Translations under genes and position numbers: made by a program | The notes under the pieces: generated by a model | Database searches by the model: none | What the model was told of the DNA's origin: nothing | What the model saw: the letters and a program-made list of their open reading frames with translations, nothing else | Part shown: in pieces, positions 30,832 through 38,024 of the stretch | Layout: every line of letters starts with the position of its first letter | Position numbering within the stretch: the first letter of the stretch is position 1 | Virus record (IMG/VR): IMGVR_UViG_3300034283_002790 | Span: 123,385-187,384 of that record | Direction: 5' to 3' (one strand) | DNA length: 64,000 bases | From: a virus

Positions 30832-32064
30832 TTAAGAAAAAACTTCAGGTAAATCGTCCCAGGATGTGGTATATTTTTGTGTAAGAAACTCTTGTCTCAT
30901 GTGCCAATTTTTAACTGGATTGTTTGGTACTGATTGAGTTTCAAAAACTTCATCAAATAAAGACTTTTGTATGACATTGTCTGGAGTTAAATCATTAAAG
31001 ATTATTCCACACTTTTTATATTGTTTGTTTTGTTCACACAACTCTTTAAATGATTTATATATTTGCGACCAGATTAATTGATTATCTCGAGTTGGTGTAT
31101 TTAAAGAAATTGTTTTTGAATAATGGTACTTGTTTCCCTTATGGTAATTACCACTAACAAAAATTGTGACTTTTTTACTTAATACTTTATTTTGTTTTAA
31201 TTTTTTAGTCCCCGTTTCTATATAACTAAACATAGCCTCAGACAACTGACTAAAATCATCAACATCTTTTCCAAATGATCTGGTGGATGCAATATTTTTT
31301 TTCAACTTAGTTTTTTCTTGGATCTGAAAACAATAAAATTCTTGTAATTCTAATTTAGTTCTCACACCATTAATATTCATCAACTTTTTTACTAAGTTTT
31401 CATTAGTGTCTATGAATTGACCAATACTTTCAATACCAAGATTTTTCAATTTTTTTGTCCATTTTCTTCCAACACCCCAAACTTCGTTAATATCAATTTT
31501 GTATGAAATTGATTTAAAATTTTTCAAACTCCAGTAAGAACATATTCCATCATAGTTTGGTTGTTTTTTTGCCATGTATGAGGTCAATTTTGCCAATGTT
31601 TTATTTGGTCCAACACCAATAGACACTGGTATTCCAACCCGTCTTAGAACCTCATCCTTGATTTTTATTAAGGTTTGATTCAATTTTTTAGAAGGTATAT
31701 GAGATAGGTCTATGAATGCTTCATCAATTGAATACACTTCAATATTGGTAACAAACTCAGAAATAACTTTCATTACCCGGTCAGAAAGATCCCCATAAAG
31801 GTTATAGTTTGAAGAATAAACACAGAATTTGTGTTCTTCCATGAATTCTTTAGATTTAAAAAATGGTTCCCCCATTTTAATTCCTAAATCTTTTGCTTCT
31901 TGTGATCGGGCAATTATTGCCCCATCATTATTTGATAAAACAACTGTTGGTTTACCGACCGATTCTGGATTAAACAATCTTTCACATGAGCAATAAAAAT
32001 TATTGCAATCCACAATACCAATTACTTTTACACTTTTTTTAAGATCCATGTTATTTTCCCCCAT
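30832..32064 (-). CDS. umuC: Y-family DNA polymerase V catalytic subunit
   Basis: VDCNNFYCSCE, VVLSNNDG, SSNYNLYGDLS, YSIDEAF, IGVGPNKTLAK, C-terminal W.MRQE.L...YTT.W. Confidence 0.95.
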   Translation of the reverse strand: MGENNMDLKKSVKVIGIVDCNNFYCSCERLFNPESVGKPTVVLSNNDGAIIARSQEAKDLGIKMGEPFFKSKEFMEEHKFCVYSSNYNLYGDLSDRVMKVISEFVTNIEVYSIDEAFIDLSHIPSKKLNQTLIKIKDEVLRRVGIPVSIGVGPNKTLAKLTSYMAKKQPNYDGICSYWSLKNFKSISYKIDINEVWGVGRKWTKKLKNLGIESIGQFIDTNENLVKKLMNINGVRTKLELQEFYCFQIQEKTKLKKNIASTRSFGKDVDDFSQLSEAMFSYIETGTKKLKQNKVLSKKVTIFVSGNYHKGNKYHYSKTISLNTPTRDNQLIWSQIYKSFKELCEQNKQYKKCGIIFNDLTPDNVIQKSLFDEVFETQSVPNNPVKNWHMRQEFLTQKYTTSWDDLPEVFS

Positions 32065-32352: not shown

Positions 32353-32781
32353 TTATTCTTCGGTTTTGTTTTCTAAATAATACTTTTCAAACACTGAGAG
32401 ACTTTTAATTCCCTGGTCTATGATTTTATCCAAAACAGAATTAACGGTTAAATTCTCAGTAAGATGTTTGTTTAACTTACTTATCAAATTTTCCGTAATT
32501 TCATTATTATTCGATAGTAACTGGTCGGTTATGTCTTTAATAGTAAATTTAATATTATACTTATTTAATACACTTTCAATTTTTTCTTTTAGTTTATCTT
32601 CAAGAAAAAAAATATCCCAGGATCTATTATCATCTCCTCCGGTATCATTTATTCCAGTCATCGTTAATACTATGGCCCATTTTGATTCTTCTGGGGTCAT
32701 TTTATCCCATAGAAGTTCCGACATTTCAGCAACTCCATGTGAATAATAATATTTTAATATTTTGTAATTTGTGTAATCCAT
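32353..32781 (-). CDS. Hypothetical protein
   Basis: 142 aa ORF. Confidence 0.65.
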   Translation of the reverse strand: MDYTNYKILKYYYSHGVAEMSELLWDKMTPEESKWAIVLTMTGINDTGGDDNRSWDIFFLEDKLKEKIESVLNKYNIKFTIKDITDQLLSNNNEITENLISKLNKHLTENLTVNSVLDKIIDQGIKSLSVFEKYYLENKTEE

Positions 32782-33185
32782 CAGAGTTTTATTTTTTTTG
32801 GTTTTCTATTTTTATTGATTAACTCTATAAATTTATTTTTACCCTCTTTGGTCACGTTTTTATGACCAAATGTTTCTGTCTGTGAATGACAATTCGGACA
32901 CAAGACTTTTAAATTATAAAAATTATTGTTTTTTCGATTTCCGTCAACATGGTCAACCTGAAATGTTAAAGGTTTTTTATTCCAATCACTTATTCCACAA
33001 CTTTCGCAAGTGTTGCCTCTGATTCGTTTAACATACTTTGACATTGCATTATTCCAGGTGGTCCCTGTTTGAAATCTTTTATCGAGATGGTGGTCTCCTT
33101 GACATCGGTTTGAACAAAACTTACCATGGGATTGACTGGGTAAGTAGGAAAATTTATTATTACATTGTAAACAAATCCCGTACAT
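32781..33185 (-). CDS. HNH endonuclease
   Basis: CESCG...FQVDHVDGNRKNN...NLKVLCPNCHSQT. Confidence 0.9.
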   Translation of the reverse strand: MYGICLQCNNKFSYLPSQSHGKFCSNRCQGDHHLDKRFQTGTTWNNAMSKYVKRIRGNTCESCGISDWNKKPLTFQVDHVDGNRKNNNFYNLKVLCPNCHSQTETFGHKNVTKEGKNKFIELINKNRKPKKIKL

Positions 33186-33466: not shown

Positions 33467-33490
33467 ATTTTTTAATTTTAATAAGTTTTG

Positions 33491-33563
33491 CGGTCCCGAC
33501 GGGATTCGAACCCGTATCTCGCACCGTGACAGGGTGGAATTGTAACCATTCAACCACGGGACC
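33491..33563 (-). tRNA. tRNA-Asp (GTC), CCA not encoded
   Basis: Acceptor stem GGTCCCG/CGGGACC, anticodon loop CTGTCAC, T-arm ACGGG-TTCGAAT-CCCGT; 73 nt. Confidence 0.92.
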
Positions 33564-33575
33564 AAGTTAATTTAG

Positions 33576-33642
33576 CAGTCAGGACAGGATTCGAACCTGT
33601 AATCCTCATTTACGATGCGTACTCCAATAACGCCACCTGACT
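33576..33642 (-). ncRNA. tRNA-like RNA with a truncated anticodon arm (67 nt)
   Basis: AGTCAGG/CCTGACT acceptor stem, D-arm GCGT/ACGC, T-arm ACAGG-TTCGAAT-CCTGT; only 16 nt between the D and T arms. Confidence 0.7.
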
Positions 33643-33718
33643 ATTTTCTCGTCTTTCCGAGATGTCAATACGGATATTTTGTGTACAATTCAGGACTCTC
33701 ATATTGCTTCCTTAGTTG

Positions 33719-33801
33719 AAGTCAGGATAGGATTCGAACCTACAATGAGCAACCATCTATAACAGATGGATTCAACACCATGTCTCTTTACACTCCTGAC
33801 T
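33719..33801 (-). ncRNA. tRNA-like RNA with a non-canonical interior (83 nt)
   Basis: Same AGTCAGG/CCTGACT acceptor stem and T-arm GTAGG-TTCGAAT-CCTAT; interior hairpin CCATCT-GTTAT-AGATGG; no standard anticodon arm. Confidence 0.65.
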
Positions 33802-33813
33802 AACTTTTTTTTA

Positions 33814-33845
33814 CAAATGTAAAACATATATTTAGATTAATCAAA
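33814..33845 (-). promoter_or_regulatory. Bacteroidota sigma-A type promoter for the tRNA cluster
   Basis: TTTG, N20, TACATTTG. Confidence 0.8.
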
Positions 33846-33861: not shown

Positions 33862-34098
33862 CTAATTTAAGTTTGAAAAATAAATTAGTTCTTCTTTTTT
33901 TTCCAATTTTAACAATAAAGGTTGTGTAATACTAATCATTGAGTTATGATCATTGATTTTTTCCATAATTTGTTTTTGGAAATTGTAAATTAAATTTTTG
34001 GTAGTTTGGGTGTGTTCAAATGTTTGACATGACTCGATTACTTTTTCAATCCAGTCTTGGATATTACTGAAACTCTTAATTCTTTTTTCCATTTTCAA
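33862..34098 (-). CDS. Hypothetical protein
   Basis: WIEKVIESCQT motif; 78 aa. Confidence 0.6.
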   Translation of the reverse strand: MKMEKRIKSFSNIQDWIEKVIESCQTFEHTQTTKNLIYNFQKQIMEKINDHNSMISITQPLLLKLEKKEELIYFSNLN

Positions 34099-34492
34099 TT
34101 TTTTTTCTAAGGTTTGAAGTTGAGAAATCGTGGGATCTTTTATTATAGTAGATCTCTATACCTCGTTCTAAACAAATTTGTCTTCCCGTGAAATCTTTGT
34201 TCTTATAATCTTCACCGATGATTCTCACGTCAAAATTAAATGATTTAAAAATATTTTCCAAATCTTTTTCATTTTCATATGGAATTATTTCATCCACAAA
34301 CTTACATCCTTTAAGTTGTATGAACCTTTCTAAAACAGATTGTACCGGTTTATTTTTTTCTGGTCTATCAGATGTAGGGTCAGTTTGAAACGCAACGTAT
34401 AAAAAATCACAAACCTCCTTACATTCCTGGAGCATTAAAATATGTCCAGCATGTAATAAATCAAAACAAGAGCAAGTAATTCCAATTCTCAT
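34076..34492 (-). CDS. Cytidylyltransferase (TagD/RfaE-like)
   Basis: ITCSCFDLLHAGH (HxGH), KPVQSVLER, IIGEDY, R.HDFSTS. Confidence 0.9.
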   Translation of the reverse strand: MRIGITCSCFDLLHAGHILMLQECKEVCDFLYVAFQTDPTSDRPEKNKPVQSVLERFIQLKGCKFVDEIIPYENEKDLENIFKSFNFDVRIIGEDYKNKDFTGRQICLERGIEIYYNKRSHDFSTSNLRKKIENGKKN

Positions 34493-34804: not shown

Positions 34805-35023
34805 TTAGAGTTTTACTAATAAGATACCTGGATTGATAGAATCAACTTCATAATTCATATTATAATCGTGAAGTGTATTTTTTACTAGATTTTTCATTAT
34901 TTGACTATGTCCTGTAATAATATGAACTTCTTTTTTATTTTTTTTCATAGACTCCCACAAAAATTGATCAATTTTGTTTGAGACATCCAAGTGACGAGTA
35001 CCATGCAGATCTAATGAATCCAT
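34805..35023 (-). CDS. Stand-alone Smr (small MutS-related) domain protein
   Basis: LDLHG...VHIITGHS...NPG. Confidence 0.8.
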   Translation of the reverse strand: MDSLDLHGTRHLDVSNKIDQFLWESMKKNKKEVHIITGHSQIMKNLVKNTLHDYNMNYEVDSINPGILLVKL

Positions 35024-37610: not shown

Positions 37611-38024
37611 TTATATTTTTTCTATTGTATAATCCCACTCAAGTCTAACACAATTTTGTTTCAAACGATTGATGTGTCGGTAGTTATTAATATAACCCAT
37701 CATATTCCCACTTCCAATTGCGTTGTGTGAATGAACCACAACATCAACAACACGTTTTCCATTCATCCACTCATTAACCAACCACTTAACACAATCCATA
37801 CCGGTCTTTTCGGTGATGTTATCGTAGTTGATTGTGTAATTTGTATAAACATTTTTTTTCCATTCATCAATTGCACTAGCACCCAAGTCGTGATCCAAAG
37901 AGATAAGTTCAATATTTTCTAAACCGATCTCATTTATTTTTTCAACAAACTCGTCGTAAGATCGAACTACAATCCAATCATTATCAACCGGTGTTCTAAC
38001 GTCATCTAAATATATTTTTTTCAT
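37611..38024 (-). CDS. Cyclic-phosphate-processing receiver (cREC) domain protein
   Basis: IYLDDVRTP...SYDEF...ISLDHDLG...TGMDCVKWL...VHSHNAIG. Confidence 0.8.
   Translation of the reverse strand: MKKIYLDDVRTPVDNDWIVVRSYDEFVEKINEIGLENIELISLDHDLGASAIDEWKKNVYTNYTINYDNITEKTGMDCVKWLVNEWMNGKRVVDVVVHSHNAIGSGNMMGYINNYRHINRLKQNCVRLEWDYTIEKI

What the first reader, a model, noticed from the sequence alone, without database searches (positions are those of the whole stretch)
33576..33801. Two tRNA-like RNAs with an identical acceptor stem and canonical T-arm but aberrant lower halves
Seen: both elements have AGTCAGG/CCTGACT acceptor stems and an (A/G)(C/T)AGG-TTCGAAT-CCT(G/A)T T-arm. The 67-nt element has a normal D-arm but a collapsed anticodon arm. 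The 83-nt element has a 3-bp D-like stem and a different hairpin (CCATCT-GTTAT-AGATGG). They are co-oriented with a genuine tRNA-Asp behind a consensus host promoter. Established: RNase P, RNase Z and CCA-adding enzyme recognise the acceptor/T-arm half. Inference: intact top halves with free lower halves suggest functional tRNA mimics (decoys for anticodon nucleases or uncharged-tRNA sensors, or processing signals) rather than random decay.
Basis: partly seen in the sequence, partly recalled or inferred. Interest (0 to 1): 0.72.

Follow-up and report, generated by a model that had tools for sequence, protein, structure and literature searches.

The report
Anticodon-less tRNA-shaped phage RNA genes
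Two small genes in an uncultured large phage encode RNAs that keep the upper half of a tRNA but have no anticodon arm; both belong to conserved RNA families found almost only in viruses, so they are real non-decoding RNAs rather than decayed tRNAs, and their job is unknown.

Summary
On the minus strand lie an 83-nt element (33801..33719), a 67-nt element (33642..33576) and a genuine tRNA-Asp(GTC). Both elements share the AGUCAGG/CCUGACU acceptor stem and a canonical T arm. Neither can decode.

- The 67-nt RNA has a 3-bp, 4-nt-loop stub where the anticodon arm should be.
- The 83-nt RNA has no anticodon or variable arm. It has an enlarged D domain with two hairpins.

Both are conserved families, not local decay. 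Pattern scans of IMG/VR found the same frame in at least 120 contigs with dozens of unrelated interiors. The 83-nt type occurs in more than 100 contigs and always sits inside a tRNA frame. Its covariation is strong: 14 of 20 pairs change on both sides, and 0 of 500 shuffles reach this. The stub type recurs in four or more lineages with compensatory stems.

The frame is almost absent from 185,579 prokaryotic species genomes (3 short MAG contigs). It gave no match in 50,697 GenBank phage records, and Rfam has no family for it.

My best reading is that these are tRNA-Leu-derived RNAs matured by the tRNA pathway and working through their upper half. Function is untested. The anticodon-nuclease decoy idea is not supported. 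This scan has flagged the same superfamily on other DNA. The closest published analogues are T5 RNA1/RNA2 and T4 species 1 RNA.

The parts
33814..33845 (-). Bacteroidota-type promoter: -33 TTTG (33845..33842), 20-nt spacer, -7 box TACATTTG (33821..33814). It ends 12 nt upstream of el.2.
   Evidence: Read from the sequence. The same promoter precedes the el.2 homologue in L051. TAnnTTTG lies within 60 nt upstream of 18 of 157 family members against 4.5% of background windows, mostly 10-15 nt from the mature 5' end.
33719..33801 (-). el.2, an 83-nt tRNA-shaped RNA with no anticodon or variable arm. Acceptor 33801-33795 pairs with 33726-33720. H1, the D-stem analogue, is AGU 33794-33792 paired with GCU 33750-33748. 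GUAAA follows H1. Hairpin A, 33786-33772, is a tandem G.A plus GACA-UGG-UGUU; it is the D-loop analogue and carries GG. Hairpin B is 33769-33753. The T arm is 33743-33727. The discriminator is U at 33719.
   Evidence: Rfam tRNA 21.2 bits, full length. Homologues in 66 and 113 IMG/VR contigs. In alignment A1, 91.5% of cells pair, 14 of 20 pairs change on both sides, and 0 of 500 shuffles reach this. The first two H1 pairs are 98% paired.
33643..33718 (-). Conserved 76-nt inter-tRNA element: stem CAAUAUG/CGUAUUG plus hairpin CUCG-GAAAGA-CGAG. It would be released by 3' processing of el.2 and RNase P cleavage at el.1.
   Evidence: Near-identical copies in 10 IMG/VR contigs, always flanked by a tRNA-Ile or a tRNA-frame gene, although the flanking genes differ. 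Fold. No Rfam match.
33576..33642 (-). el.1, a 67-nt 'stub' tRNA-shaped RNA. Acceptor 33642-33636 pairs with 33583-33577. D arm 33633-33617 carries GG. Stub hairpin UCG-UAAA-UGA, 33615-33606, replaces the anticodon arm. The variable region is GGAUU. The T arm is 33600-33584. The discriminator is G at 33576.
   Evidence: Rfam tRNA 39.6 bits with the anticodon arm collapsed. Stub-class relatives have covarying stubs: CCU-AACA-AGG, CCG-GUAA-CGG and AGAA-UA-UUCU. Further frames of 61-70 nt were found.
33490..33563 (-). Genuine tRNA-Asp(GTC), co-oriented, 12 nt downstream of el.1 and about 20 nt upstream of the next ORF.
   Evidence: ARAGORN. Rfam 59.9 bits.

Best explanation
El.1 and el.2 are two functional, non-decoding, tRNA-shaped RNA genes. 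They belong to a tRNA-Leu-derived superfamily found almost only in viruses.

How I think they are made: they are transcribed from the Bacteroidota-type promoter as one precursor, in the order el.2, 76-nt element, el.1, tRNA-Asp, downstream mRNA. The host tRNA maturation machinery then cuts them out: RNase P at the 5' end, endo- or exonuclease at the 3' end, then CCA addition. The products accumulate as stable small RNAs.

How I think they work: the working part is the upper body, meaning the acceptor/T-arm helix plus the D/T-loop elbow. They act as tRNA look-alikes for a factor that reads neither anticodon nor discriminator.

Shown: the anatomy, conservation, covariation, the near-restriction to viral contigs, and the inability to decode.

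Inferred: transcription, processing, stability, and the mode of action.
For: 1. Both have perfect 7-bp acceptor stems and canonical T arms. El.1 has a normal GG-bearing D arm. None of this is chance.

2. Neither can decode. El.1 has a 10-nt stub. Hairpin B of el.2 ranges from 4 to 14 nt between its closing CC/GG pairs and has no conserved loop. Across 127 members sharing the frame, ARAGORN called 58, with about 38 different and often malformed 'anticodons'.

3. Selection acts on RNA structure. In A1 all six acceptor pairs tested, three T-arm pairs and four hairpin-A pairs change on both sides. 91.5% of cells pair against 29-44% when partners are slid, and 0 of 500 shuffles reach the observed values. 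Frequent G.U pairs fit the minus strand as the RNA strand.

4. The el.2 module, searched with no constraint on T arm or acceptor, gave 91 distinct sequences. All sit inside a tRNA frame, with more than 20 different compensated acceptor helices.

5. The stub class recurs with four different compensated stubs and three acceptor types, and further short frames of 61-70 nt exist.

7. The conserved features are the acceptor helix, T arm, elbow GG (208 of 234) and C74 (299 of 300). From established knowledge, these are the determinants read by RNase P, 3' processing and the CCA-adding enzyme. N73 varies (A, G or U) and the interior varies freely.

8. The genes sit in a tRNA operon behind a promoter. 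Close relatives show them gained, lost or re-filled as units.
Against: No partner is identified. No protein is consistently linked: the best neighbour cluster covers 11 of 121 loci.

The conserved features fit a pure processing signal or a stability scaffold equally well.

The dominance of the exact AGUCAGG stem may reflect recent spread or recombination rather than a sequence-specific partner. El.2-type members work with many other acceptor sequences.

Single-sequence folding is not exceptional: z = -1.4 for el.1 and -2.5 for el.2.
Confidence: 0.5

Rival explanations
1. Natural tRNA scaffolds. The tRNA frame only provides processing and stability, and the working part is whatever sits in place of the anticodon and variable arms. 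On this reading el.2 carries a structured module and el.1 is an emptied frame.
For: One frame carries dozens of unrelated interiors, for total lengths of 67-142 nt: 228 distinct interiors in 175 loci. At the same locus the window has a stub while L136 has a 44-nt insert with its own T-arm-like hairpin. The layout resembles engineered tRNA scaffolds that replace the anticodon arm (my own knowledge, not checked here).
Against: The stub class has no cargo yet is conserved in several lineages, including 14 contigs with one identical sequence. The el.2 module never occurs outside a tRNA frame, and its conserved parts are the D-stem and D-loop analogues that build the elbow. The only arm-like part, hairpin B, is unconstrained.
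Confidence: 0.2
2. Processing punctuation. The tRNA-like folds exist only to direct RNase P and 3' cleavage of a polycistronic precursor. This releases the conserved 76-nt element and sets the 5' end of downstream mRNAs. The excised tRNA-like pieces have no role of their own.
For: Only maturation determinants are conserved. The 76-nt element is always bracketed by tRNA or tRNA-frame genes. Few members are followed by a terminator-like site (22 of 265). Many are followed closely by a co-directional ORF, at a median of 74.5 nt.
Against: El.2 is the first element after the promoter, so nothing upstream needs releasing. A genuine tRNA-Asp lies next door and could punctuate alone. In L205 and L207 an ordinary tRNA-Ile does this job next to the 76-nt element. 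Dense co-directional ORFs are the norm in phages, so one search has no real control.
Confidence: 0.15
3. Dedicated aminoacyl carriers. The RNAs are charged (leucine for most family members) by a host synthetase that ignores the anticodon. They then donate the amino acid to a non-ribosomal reaction without entering translation.
For: The frame looks derived from class II tRNA-Leu. Its D arm is GGCGGAAUUGGUAGACGC. A73 occurs in 264 of 300 members. The nearest canonical tRNAs in these loci are phage tRNA-Leu(UAA) with acceptor GGUCGGG. Bacterial LeuRS needs A73 and the tertiary core, and deleting the whole anticodon arm costs only 2.5-fold in affinity (PMC2377443). Phage Mom uses Gly-tRNA as a donor (PMC13219725).
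Against: The window's copies have G73 (el.1) and U73 (el.2). El.1 also has U, not A, at position 14. In A. aeolicus LeuRS, A73G, A73U and A14U cut leucylation 143-, 45- and 40-fold (PMC2377443). N73 switches between close relatives (G in the window, A in L079). No FemAB-type transferase was found in the 187-kb record, which is about 64% complete.
Confidence: 0.07
4. Decaying tRNA pseudogenes left over from a phage tRNA cluster.
For: Default ARAGORN does not call them. El.2 scores below Rfam's gathering score. The local cluster is mosaic among relatives.
Against: Helices are perfect and covary across many contigs. The same aberrant architectures recur in more than 100 contigs. The flanks are unalignable while the elements stay nearly identical.
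Confidence: 0.05

Closest known systems
Phage T5 RNA1 and RNA2 (NC_005859 misc_RNA T5s03 and T5s06, annotated 'tRNA-like stable RNA with unknown functions')
   Same: They lie inside a phage tRNA gene cluster. They have a tRNA-like acceptor and T arm with a non-decoding interior. T5 RNA1 has a Leu-type D arm (GCCGGAAUUGGUAGACGG) and, like el.2, gives a full-length sub-threshold Rfam tRNA match (24 bits against 21.2). T5 RNA2 has the same T arm, GCAGG-UUCGAAU-CCUGU.
   Different: The acceptor stems differ, the interiors are much longer (125-144 nt) and there is no detectable sequence homology. Neither el.1 nor el.2 gave a blastn match in 50,697 phage records. The T5 RNAs are annotated as stable RNAs; nothing is known about expression here.
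Phage T4 species 1 and species 2 RNAs (rnaC, rnaD; NC_000866 70908-71171)
   Same: Small stable RNAs of unknown function encoded at the end of the T4 tRNA cluster. rnaC ends in a canonical T arm, CCGGG-UUCGAAU-CCCGG.
   Different: They are 119-139 nt long, have no Rfam tRNA match at E<=1 and share no frame with el.1 or el.2.
Class II tRNA-Leu, including anticodon-arm deletion variants used in LeuRS studies
   Same: Most of the superfamily, and largely el.1, have a Leu-type D arm and T arm. Most of the superfamily has A73. Canonical phage tRNA-Leu(UAA) in these loci has the closest frame. LeuRS tolerates loss of the anticodon arm (PMC2377443).
   Different: El.1 and el.2 have no anticodon and no long variable arm. 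They have G73 and U73. El.1 has U14. El.2 lacks the U8-N9 linker and has a rebuilt D domain.
mascRNA / menRNA (Rfam RF01684), tmRNA tRNA-like domain, bacterial Y-RNA-like YrlA (RF02553)
   Same: These are tRNA look-alikes that keep the acceptor/T-arm half and lack a working anticodon. mascRNA is made by RNase P and RNase Z and gets CCA (my own knowledge).
   Different: No Rfam match of el.1 or el.2 to these families at E<=10. No tmRNA was called. There is no G3.U70, the ends are at the acceptor (unlike YrlA), and the setting is a phage of bacteria rather than a eukaryote.

Membership tests
Canonical tRNA (Rfam RF00005) | Score at or above the curated gathering score of 29 bits | tested here: inconclusive
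   El.1 scores 39.6 bits and passes. El.2 scores 21.2 bits and fails.
Canonical tRNA (Rfam RF00005) | Anticodon arm with a 5-bp stem and a 7-nt loop carrying U33 and an anticodon | tested here: not met
   El.1 has a 3-bp stem and a 4-nt loop. El.2 has a 6-bp stem and a 5-nt loop in a hairpin whose length and loop vary freely in relatives. Default ARAGORN calls neither.
Anticodon-less tRNA-Leu-shaped phage RNA superfamily (AGUCAGG frame; unpublished, seen in IMG/VR) | 7-bp acceptor AGUCAGG/CCUGACU, or a compensated variant, plus a canonical T arm | tested here: met
   Both elements match the pattern exactly, as do at least 120 IMG/VR contigs.
Anticodon-less tRNA-Leu-shaped phage RNA superfamily (AGUCAGG frame; unpublished, seen in IMG/VR) | Leu-type D arm with G18G19 and discriminator A73 | tested here: not met
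   El.1 has a normal GG-bearing D arm but U14 and G73. El.2 has a rebuilt D domain and U73. The family majority is A73, 264 of 300.
Anticodon-less tRNA-Leu-shaped phage RNA superfamily (AGUCAGG frame; unpublished, seen in IMG/VR) | Non-decoding interior, with a distribution almost confined to viral contigs | tested here: met
   Three short MAG contigs in 185,579 species genomes.
Phage tRNA-like stable RNAs (T4 rnaC/rnaD, T5 RNA1/RNA2) | Encoded within a phage tRNA cluster, with tRNA-like ends | tested here: met
   El.2, el.1 and tRNA-Asp are co-oriented within 312 nt.
Phage tRNA-like stable RNAs (T4 rnaC/rnaD, T5 RNA1/RNA2) | Accumulates as a discrete stable RNA processed by RNase P | not testable with these tools
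Phage tRNA-like stable RNAs (T4 rnaC/rnaD, T5 RNA1/RNA2) | Sequence homology to the T4 or T5 RNAs | tested here: not met
   No blastn match in the phage collection. Only the T-arm sequence is shared with T5 RNA2.
tmRNA tRNA-like domain | G3.U70 alanine identity and an attached mRNA-like domain | tested here: not met
   The pair is U3-A70. ARAGORN's tmRNA search found nothing.

The most novel reading that the evidence does not exclude
Phages of uncultured aquatic or Bacteroidota-type hosts carry a large class of anticodon-less tRNA-shaped RNAs, found almost only in viruses. These RNAs would act through the acceptor/T-arm/elbow half. Two possible modes are a sponge for a host tRNA-binding defence or processing factor that ignores the anticodon, and a dedicated carrier outside translation. 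The 67-nt stub form seen here would be the minimal active unit.
Probability: 0.25. Interest if true: 0.85.

Novelty: new variant of a known kind. Interest (0 to 1): 0.62.

Why it matters
Phage tRNA clusters have been known for about 50 years to contain 'tRNA-like stable RNAs' of unknown function (T4 species 1 and 2, T5 RNA1 and RNA2).

This locus shows such RNAs are not oddities of two model phages. They form a large, conserved, structurally constrained superfamily that is almost confined to viruses and is missing from Rfam and from the papers I could search.

The window adds two useful forms:
- a minimal 67-nt member that is essentially a tRNA without an anticodon arm, which argues that the upper body alone matters;
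- a well-populated subfamily (el.2 type) with a rebuilt D domain, good enough to seed a covariance model.

It also exposes a conserved 76-nt RNA-like element that is always bracketed by tRNA-type genes.

If the function is counter-defence or hijacking of tRNA-handling enzymes, this would be a new layer of phage-host conflict. Even if not, these genes are systematically mis-annotated or missed by tRNA finders.

Tried and rejected
- **Intron-containing or split tRNA spanning both elements.** ARAGORN with -i gives a 'tRNA-Asn(att)' with a 143-nt intron at position 28-29. This is a forced, implausible fold and I rejected it.
- **Decoding tRNA.** Rejected.
- **Linked protein partner.** All-against-all BLAST of 1,225 ORFs within 4 kb of members found no cluster in more than 11 of 121 loci. 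The top clusters are HNH endonuclease, DUF932, a metallophosphatase and unknowns.
- **tRNA-handling enzymes in the phage record.** RtcB, CCA-adding enzyme (PolyA_pol), T4 Rnl1 and FemAB were not found. The record is about 64% complete, and the Rnl1 search had no positive control.
- **Sigma-70 promoter.** TTGACA-17-AATAGT inside the 76-nt element would start transcription inside el.1's acceptor stem. I read it as chance.
- **Small ORF.** A 30-codon ORF starts at an AUG in the 76-nt element and ends in el.1's stub loop. The AUG is ACG in most relatives, so it is not a conserved ORF.
- **Host or cultured relatives.** No blastn match of el.1 or el.2 in 50,697 GenBank phage records. Protein searches with two neighbouring ORFs gave only distant, uninformative hits.
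- **Lead from earlier notes that phage SPP1 carries members.** Not confirmed by the Rfam tRNA model at E<=1 or by a search for a T loop plus a 7/7-paired acceptor.
- **Literature.** Four searches found no description of the family. The 2026 preprint on bacterial tRNA mimics covers other Rfam families, and those do not match here.
- **Neighbour context as a test of the punctuation idea.** One search has no adequate control, so I gave it little weight.

Full report
**What is there.** The window is the right-hand 64 kb of a 187-kb IMG/VR virus record with 30% G+C and an estimated completeness of 64%. All features lie on the minus strand, in this order:
- a Bacteroidota-type promoter: TTTG 33845..33842, 20 nt, TACATTTG 33821..33814;
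- el.2, 33801..33719, 83 nt;
- a 76-nt segment, 33718..33643;
- el.1, 33642..33576, 67 nt;
- tRNA-Asp(GTC), 33563..33490;
- about 20 nt later, an ORF of PHROG family 4074.

Both elements start AGUCAGG and end CCUGACU plus one base. Both have a 5-bp T stem around UUCGAAU. The combined pattern occurs twice against 0.00 expected.

Rfam's tRNA model aligns el.1 end to end at 39.6 bits but has to delete the anticodon arm. It aligns el.2 at 21.2 bits, below threshold. Default ARAGORN calls only tRNA-Asp.

**Neither element can decode.** El.1 has the 10-nt hairpin UCG-UAAA-UGA between a normal D arm and the variable region. In el.2 the only arm-like hairpin is CCAUCU-GUUAU-AGAUGG. In relatives this hairpin is replaced by anything from CC-UUUA-GG to CCUUUACCAUCAUUAAGG.

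**The frame is a large family found almost only in viruses.** I scanned IMG/VR for AGTCAGG, 35-60 nt, GGTTCGAATCC, NNN, CCTGACT. The interiors differ wildly in length (66-88 nt within the pattern, up to about 140 nt with a looser one) and in sequence: 228 distinct interiors in 175 loci.
- Features the pattern did not force are nevertheless conserved. U8 is followed by a Leu-type D arm with GG in 208 of 234 members. The T stem is ACAGG/CCUGU. N73 is A in 264 of 300 members, G in 22 and U in 14. C74 is present in 299 of 300.
- ARAGORN called 58 of 127 members, assigning about 38 different 'anticodons', many with 6- or 8-nt loops and mismatched stems. That is incompatible with one acceptor identity, so the calls are spurious.
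- The same pattern hit only three short MAG contigs among 185,579 bacterial and archaeal species genomes.
- El.1 and el.2 gave no blastn match in 50,697 GenBank phage records.
- Rfam 15 has no family for them.
- Four literature searches found no description.

**El.2 type.** I searched with its interior only.
- The pattern GTAAWGNG..GGTTRC..T loop, with the acceptor unconstrained, gave 66 contigs.
- The pattern GTAATGAGG..CCRARTCC..GGTTGC, with neither T arm nor acceptor constrained, gave 113 contigs and 91 distinct sequences. Every one sits inside a tRNA frame. 38 of 88 have exactly AGUCAGG/CCUGACU. The rest use more than 20 other compensated helices, for example GGCUAGG/CCUAGUC, UGUCAGG/CCUGACA and GGGGUGG/CCACCCC.
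- On the 48-sequence alignment A1, 91.5% of cells pair, against 29-44% when partners are slid. 14 of 20 pairs change on both sides, including all six acceptor pairs tested. No shuffle of 500 reaches any observed measure.

The fold these data support has the following parts, in order:
- the acceptor stem;
- directly abutting it, a short helix H1 (AGU/GCU here; its first two pairs are 98% paired);
- the conserved GUAAWG;
- hairpin A, which is a tandem G.A plus GACA-UGG-UGUU; the G.A pairs become Watson-Crick pairs in another subgroup;
- AAUCC;
- hairpin B, which is unconstrained apart from its closing CC/GG pairs;
- UU, then the H1 return strand;
- four nucleotides, then the T arm.

Comparison with the Leu-type frame (GGCGGAAUUGG against GGCGUAAUG-) suggests two things. 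H1 is the D stem. The GG that normally docks on the T loop now sits on hairpin A. The anticodon and variable arms are simply gone. This homology is my inference from the alignment.

**El.1 type.** A scan for a D loop followed within 14-24 nt by GATTRYN and the T loop gave 36 contigs. Besides a few ordinary tRNAs (Arg-ACG, Lys-UUU, Asp-GUC, each with its own acceptor, a useful internal control), it returned the stub class:
- the window plus L079 (three contigs): UCG-UAAA-UGA;
- a second lineage with CCU-AACA-AGG, including one identical sequence in 14 contigs;
- L175: CCG-GUAA-CGG, acceptor UGGACUG;
- L195: AGAA-UA-UUCU, acceptor UCCCUGU.

A length-limited search found more frames of 61-70 nt. 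The stub is therefore a recurring, compensated form and not a private deletion.

**Mosaic relatives.** L136 has el.2 and the 76-nt segment almost base for base. At the el.1 position it carries the same frame with a 44-nt insert that contains a second T-arm-like hairpin. L124 has el.2 followed directly by the PHROG-4074 ORF, with no el.1 and no tRNA-Asp. L051 shares the promoter and el.2 only. L074, and the contig behind L165 and L196, carry both an el.1-type and an el.2-type gene, as the window does.

The 76-nt 'spacer' is itself conserved in 10 contigs. It is always bracketed by a tRNA-Ile(GAU) or a tRNA-frame gene, although which gene varies.

The same phage has a third frame-type gene outside the window (G000:C1:67084-67195). 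Its acceptor is AAUCGAA and it has a hairpin in the D loop.

**Origin and charging.** Among canonical tRNAs in these loci, the closest frames are phage tRNA-Leu(UAA) with acceptor GGUCGGG, a Leu D arm and A73-C74. Bacterial LeuRS reads A73 and the tertiary core. Loss of the whole anticodon arm costs only 2.5-fold in affinity (PMC2377443). Most family members could therefore in principle be leucylated.

The window's copies argue against charging as the common function. El.1 has G73 and U14, and el.2 has U73. The changes A73G, A73U and A14U lower leucylation 143-, 45- and 40-fold in that study. The discriminator also flips between close relatives.

**Mechanism.** What selection keeps is the acceptor helix, T arm, elbow and C74. 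From established knowledge of RNase P, RNase Z or exonucleases and the CCA-adding enzyme, this is the set of maturation determinants. What selection does not keep is everything needed for decoding or for a fixed amino-acid identity.

I therefore commit to this reading: the RNAs are matured like tRNAs, are stable, do not decode, and act through the upper body. My confidence is 0.5.

The rivals are natural tRNA scaffolds for variable modules (0.2), pure processing punctuation (0.15), aminoacyl carriers (0.07) and pseudogenes (0.05). No linked protein was found. RtcB, CCA-adding enzyme, Rnl1 and FemAB were not found in the record. Nearby genes include a cytidylyltransferase-like protein, Smr, cREC_REC and an HNH endonuclease. 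These are suggestive of RNA-conflict biology but prove nothing.

**Comparison and novelty.** The nearest published things are T5 RNA1 and RNA2 and T4 species 1 and 2 RNAs. They have the same setting and the same idea, but no homology, and their function is unknown. I class the finding as a new variant of that known kind.

Earlier notes of this scan describe the same superfamily on other genomes, so the family is not new to the scan. What this locus adds is the minimal stub form, the el.2-type architecture with statistics, and the conserved 76-nt element.

**Limits.**
- There are no expression data.
- Several conserved motifs in the el.2 alignments were forced by the search patterns. The acceptor, T-stem and hairpin-A covariation were not forced.
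- Host assignment rests only on the promoter type.

Noticed in passing
window 33643-33718 (minus): The 76 nt between el.2 and el.1 is a conserved RNA-like element: stem CAAUAYG/CGUAUUG plus hairpin CUCG-GAAAGA-CGAG. Near-identical copies occur in 10 IMG/VR contigs. It is always bracketed by a tRNA-Ile(GAU) or a tRNA-frame gene, although the neighbours differ. It has no Rfam match.
   Followed up: partly
G000:C1:67084-67195 (minus), outside the window: A third non-decoding tRNA-frame gene in the same phage. It is 112 nt and scores 27.2 bits on Rfam tRNA. Its acceptor is AAUCGAA/UUCGAUU, it has a Leu-type D arm with a hairpin inserted in the D loop, and its discriminator is A73. The only canonical tRNAs in the record are Arg(TCT) and Asp(GTC).
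   Followed up: partly
L136:2400-2900 (minus): A close relative carries, at the el.1 position, the same frame with a 44-nt insert that includes a second T-arm-like hairpin (UGGG-UUCAAGU-CCCA). Its tRNA-Asp is a clearly different sequence, so the cluster is mosaic.
   Followed up: partly
window 34076-34492, 34805-35023, 37611-38024 (all minus): A cytidylyltransferase-like protein, a stand-alone Smr domain protein and a cREC_REC (cyclic-phosphate processing receiver) protein lie within 4.5 kb of the tRNA cluster. No RtcB, CCA-adding enzyme or T4-type RNA ligase was found in the record.
   Followed up: partly
window 32781-33185 (minus): An HNH endonuclease gene lies about 300 nt downstream of tRNA-Asp. 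HNH genes were among the commonest neighbours of family members (9 loci). This fits homing-driven shuffling of tRNA-region cassettes, as in T4 and T5.
   Followed up: no
window 30832-32064 (minus): A 410-aa ORF resembles UmuC / Y-family error-prone DNA polymerase genes of temperate enterobacterial phages (33-37% identity).
   Followed up: no
window 33606-33700 (minus): A 30-codon ORF starts at an AUG in the 76-nt element and stops at the UAA in el.1's stub loop. The AUG is ACG in most relatives, so it is probably not a gene.
   Followed up: yes
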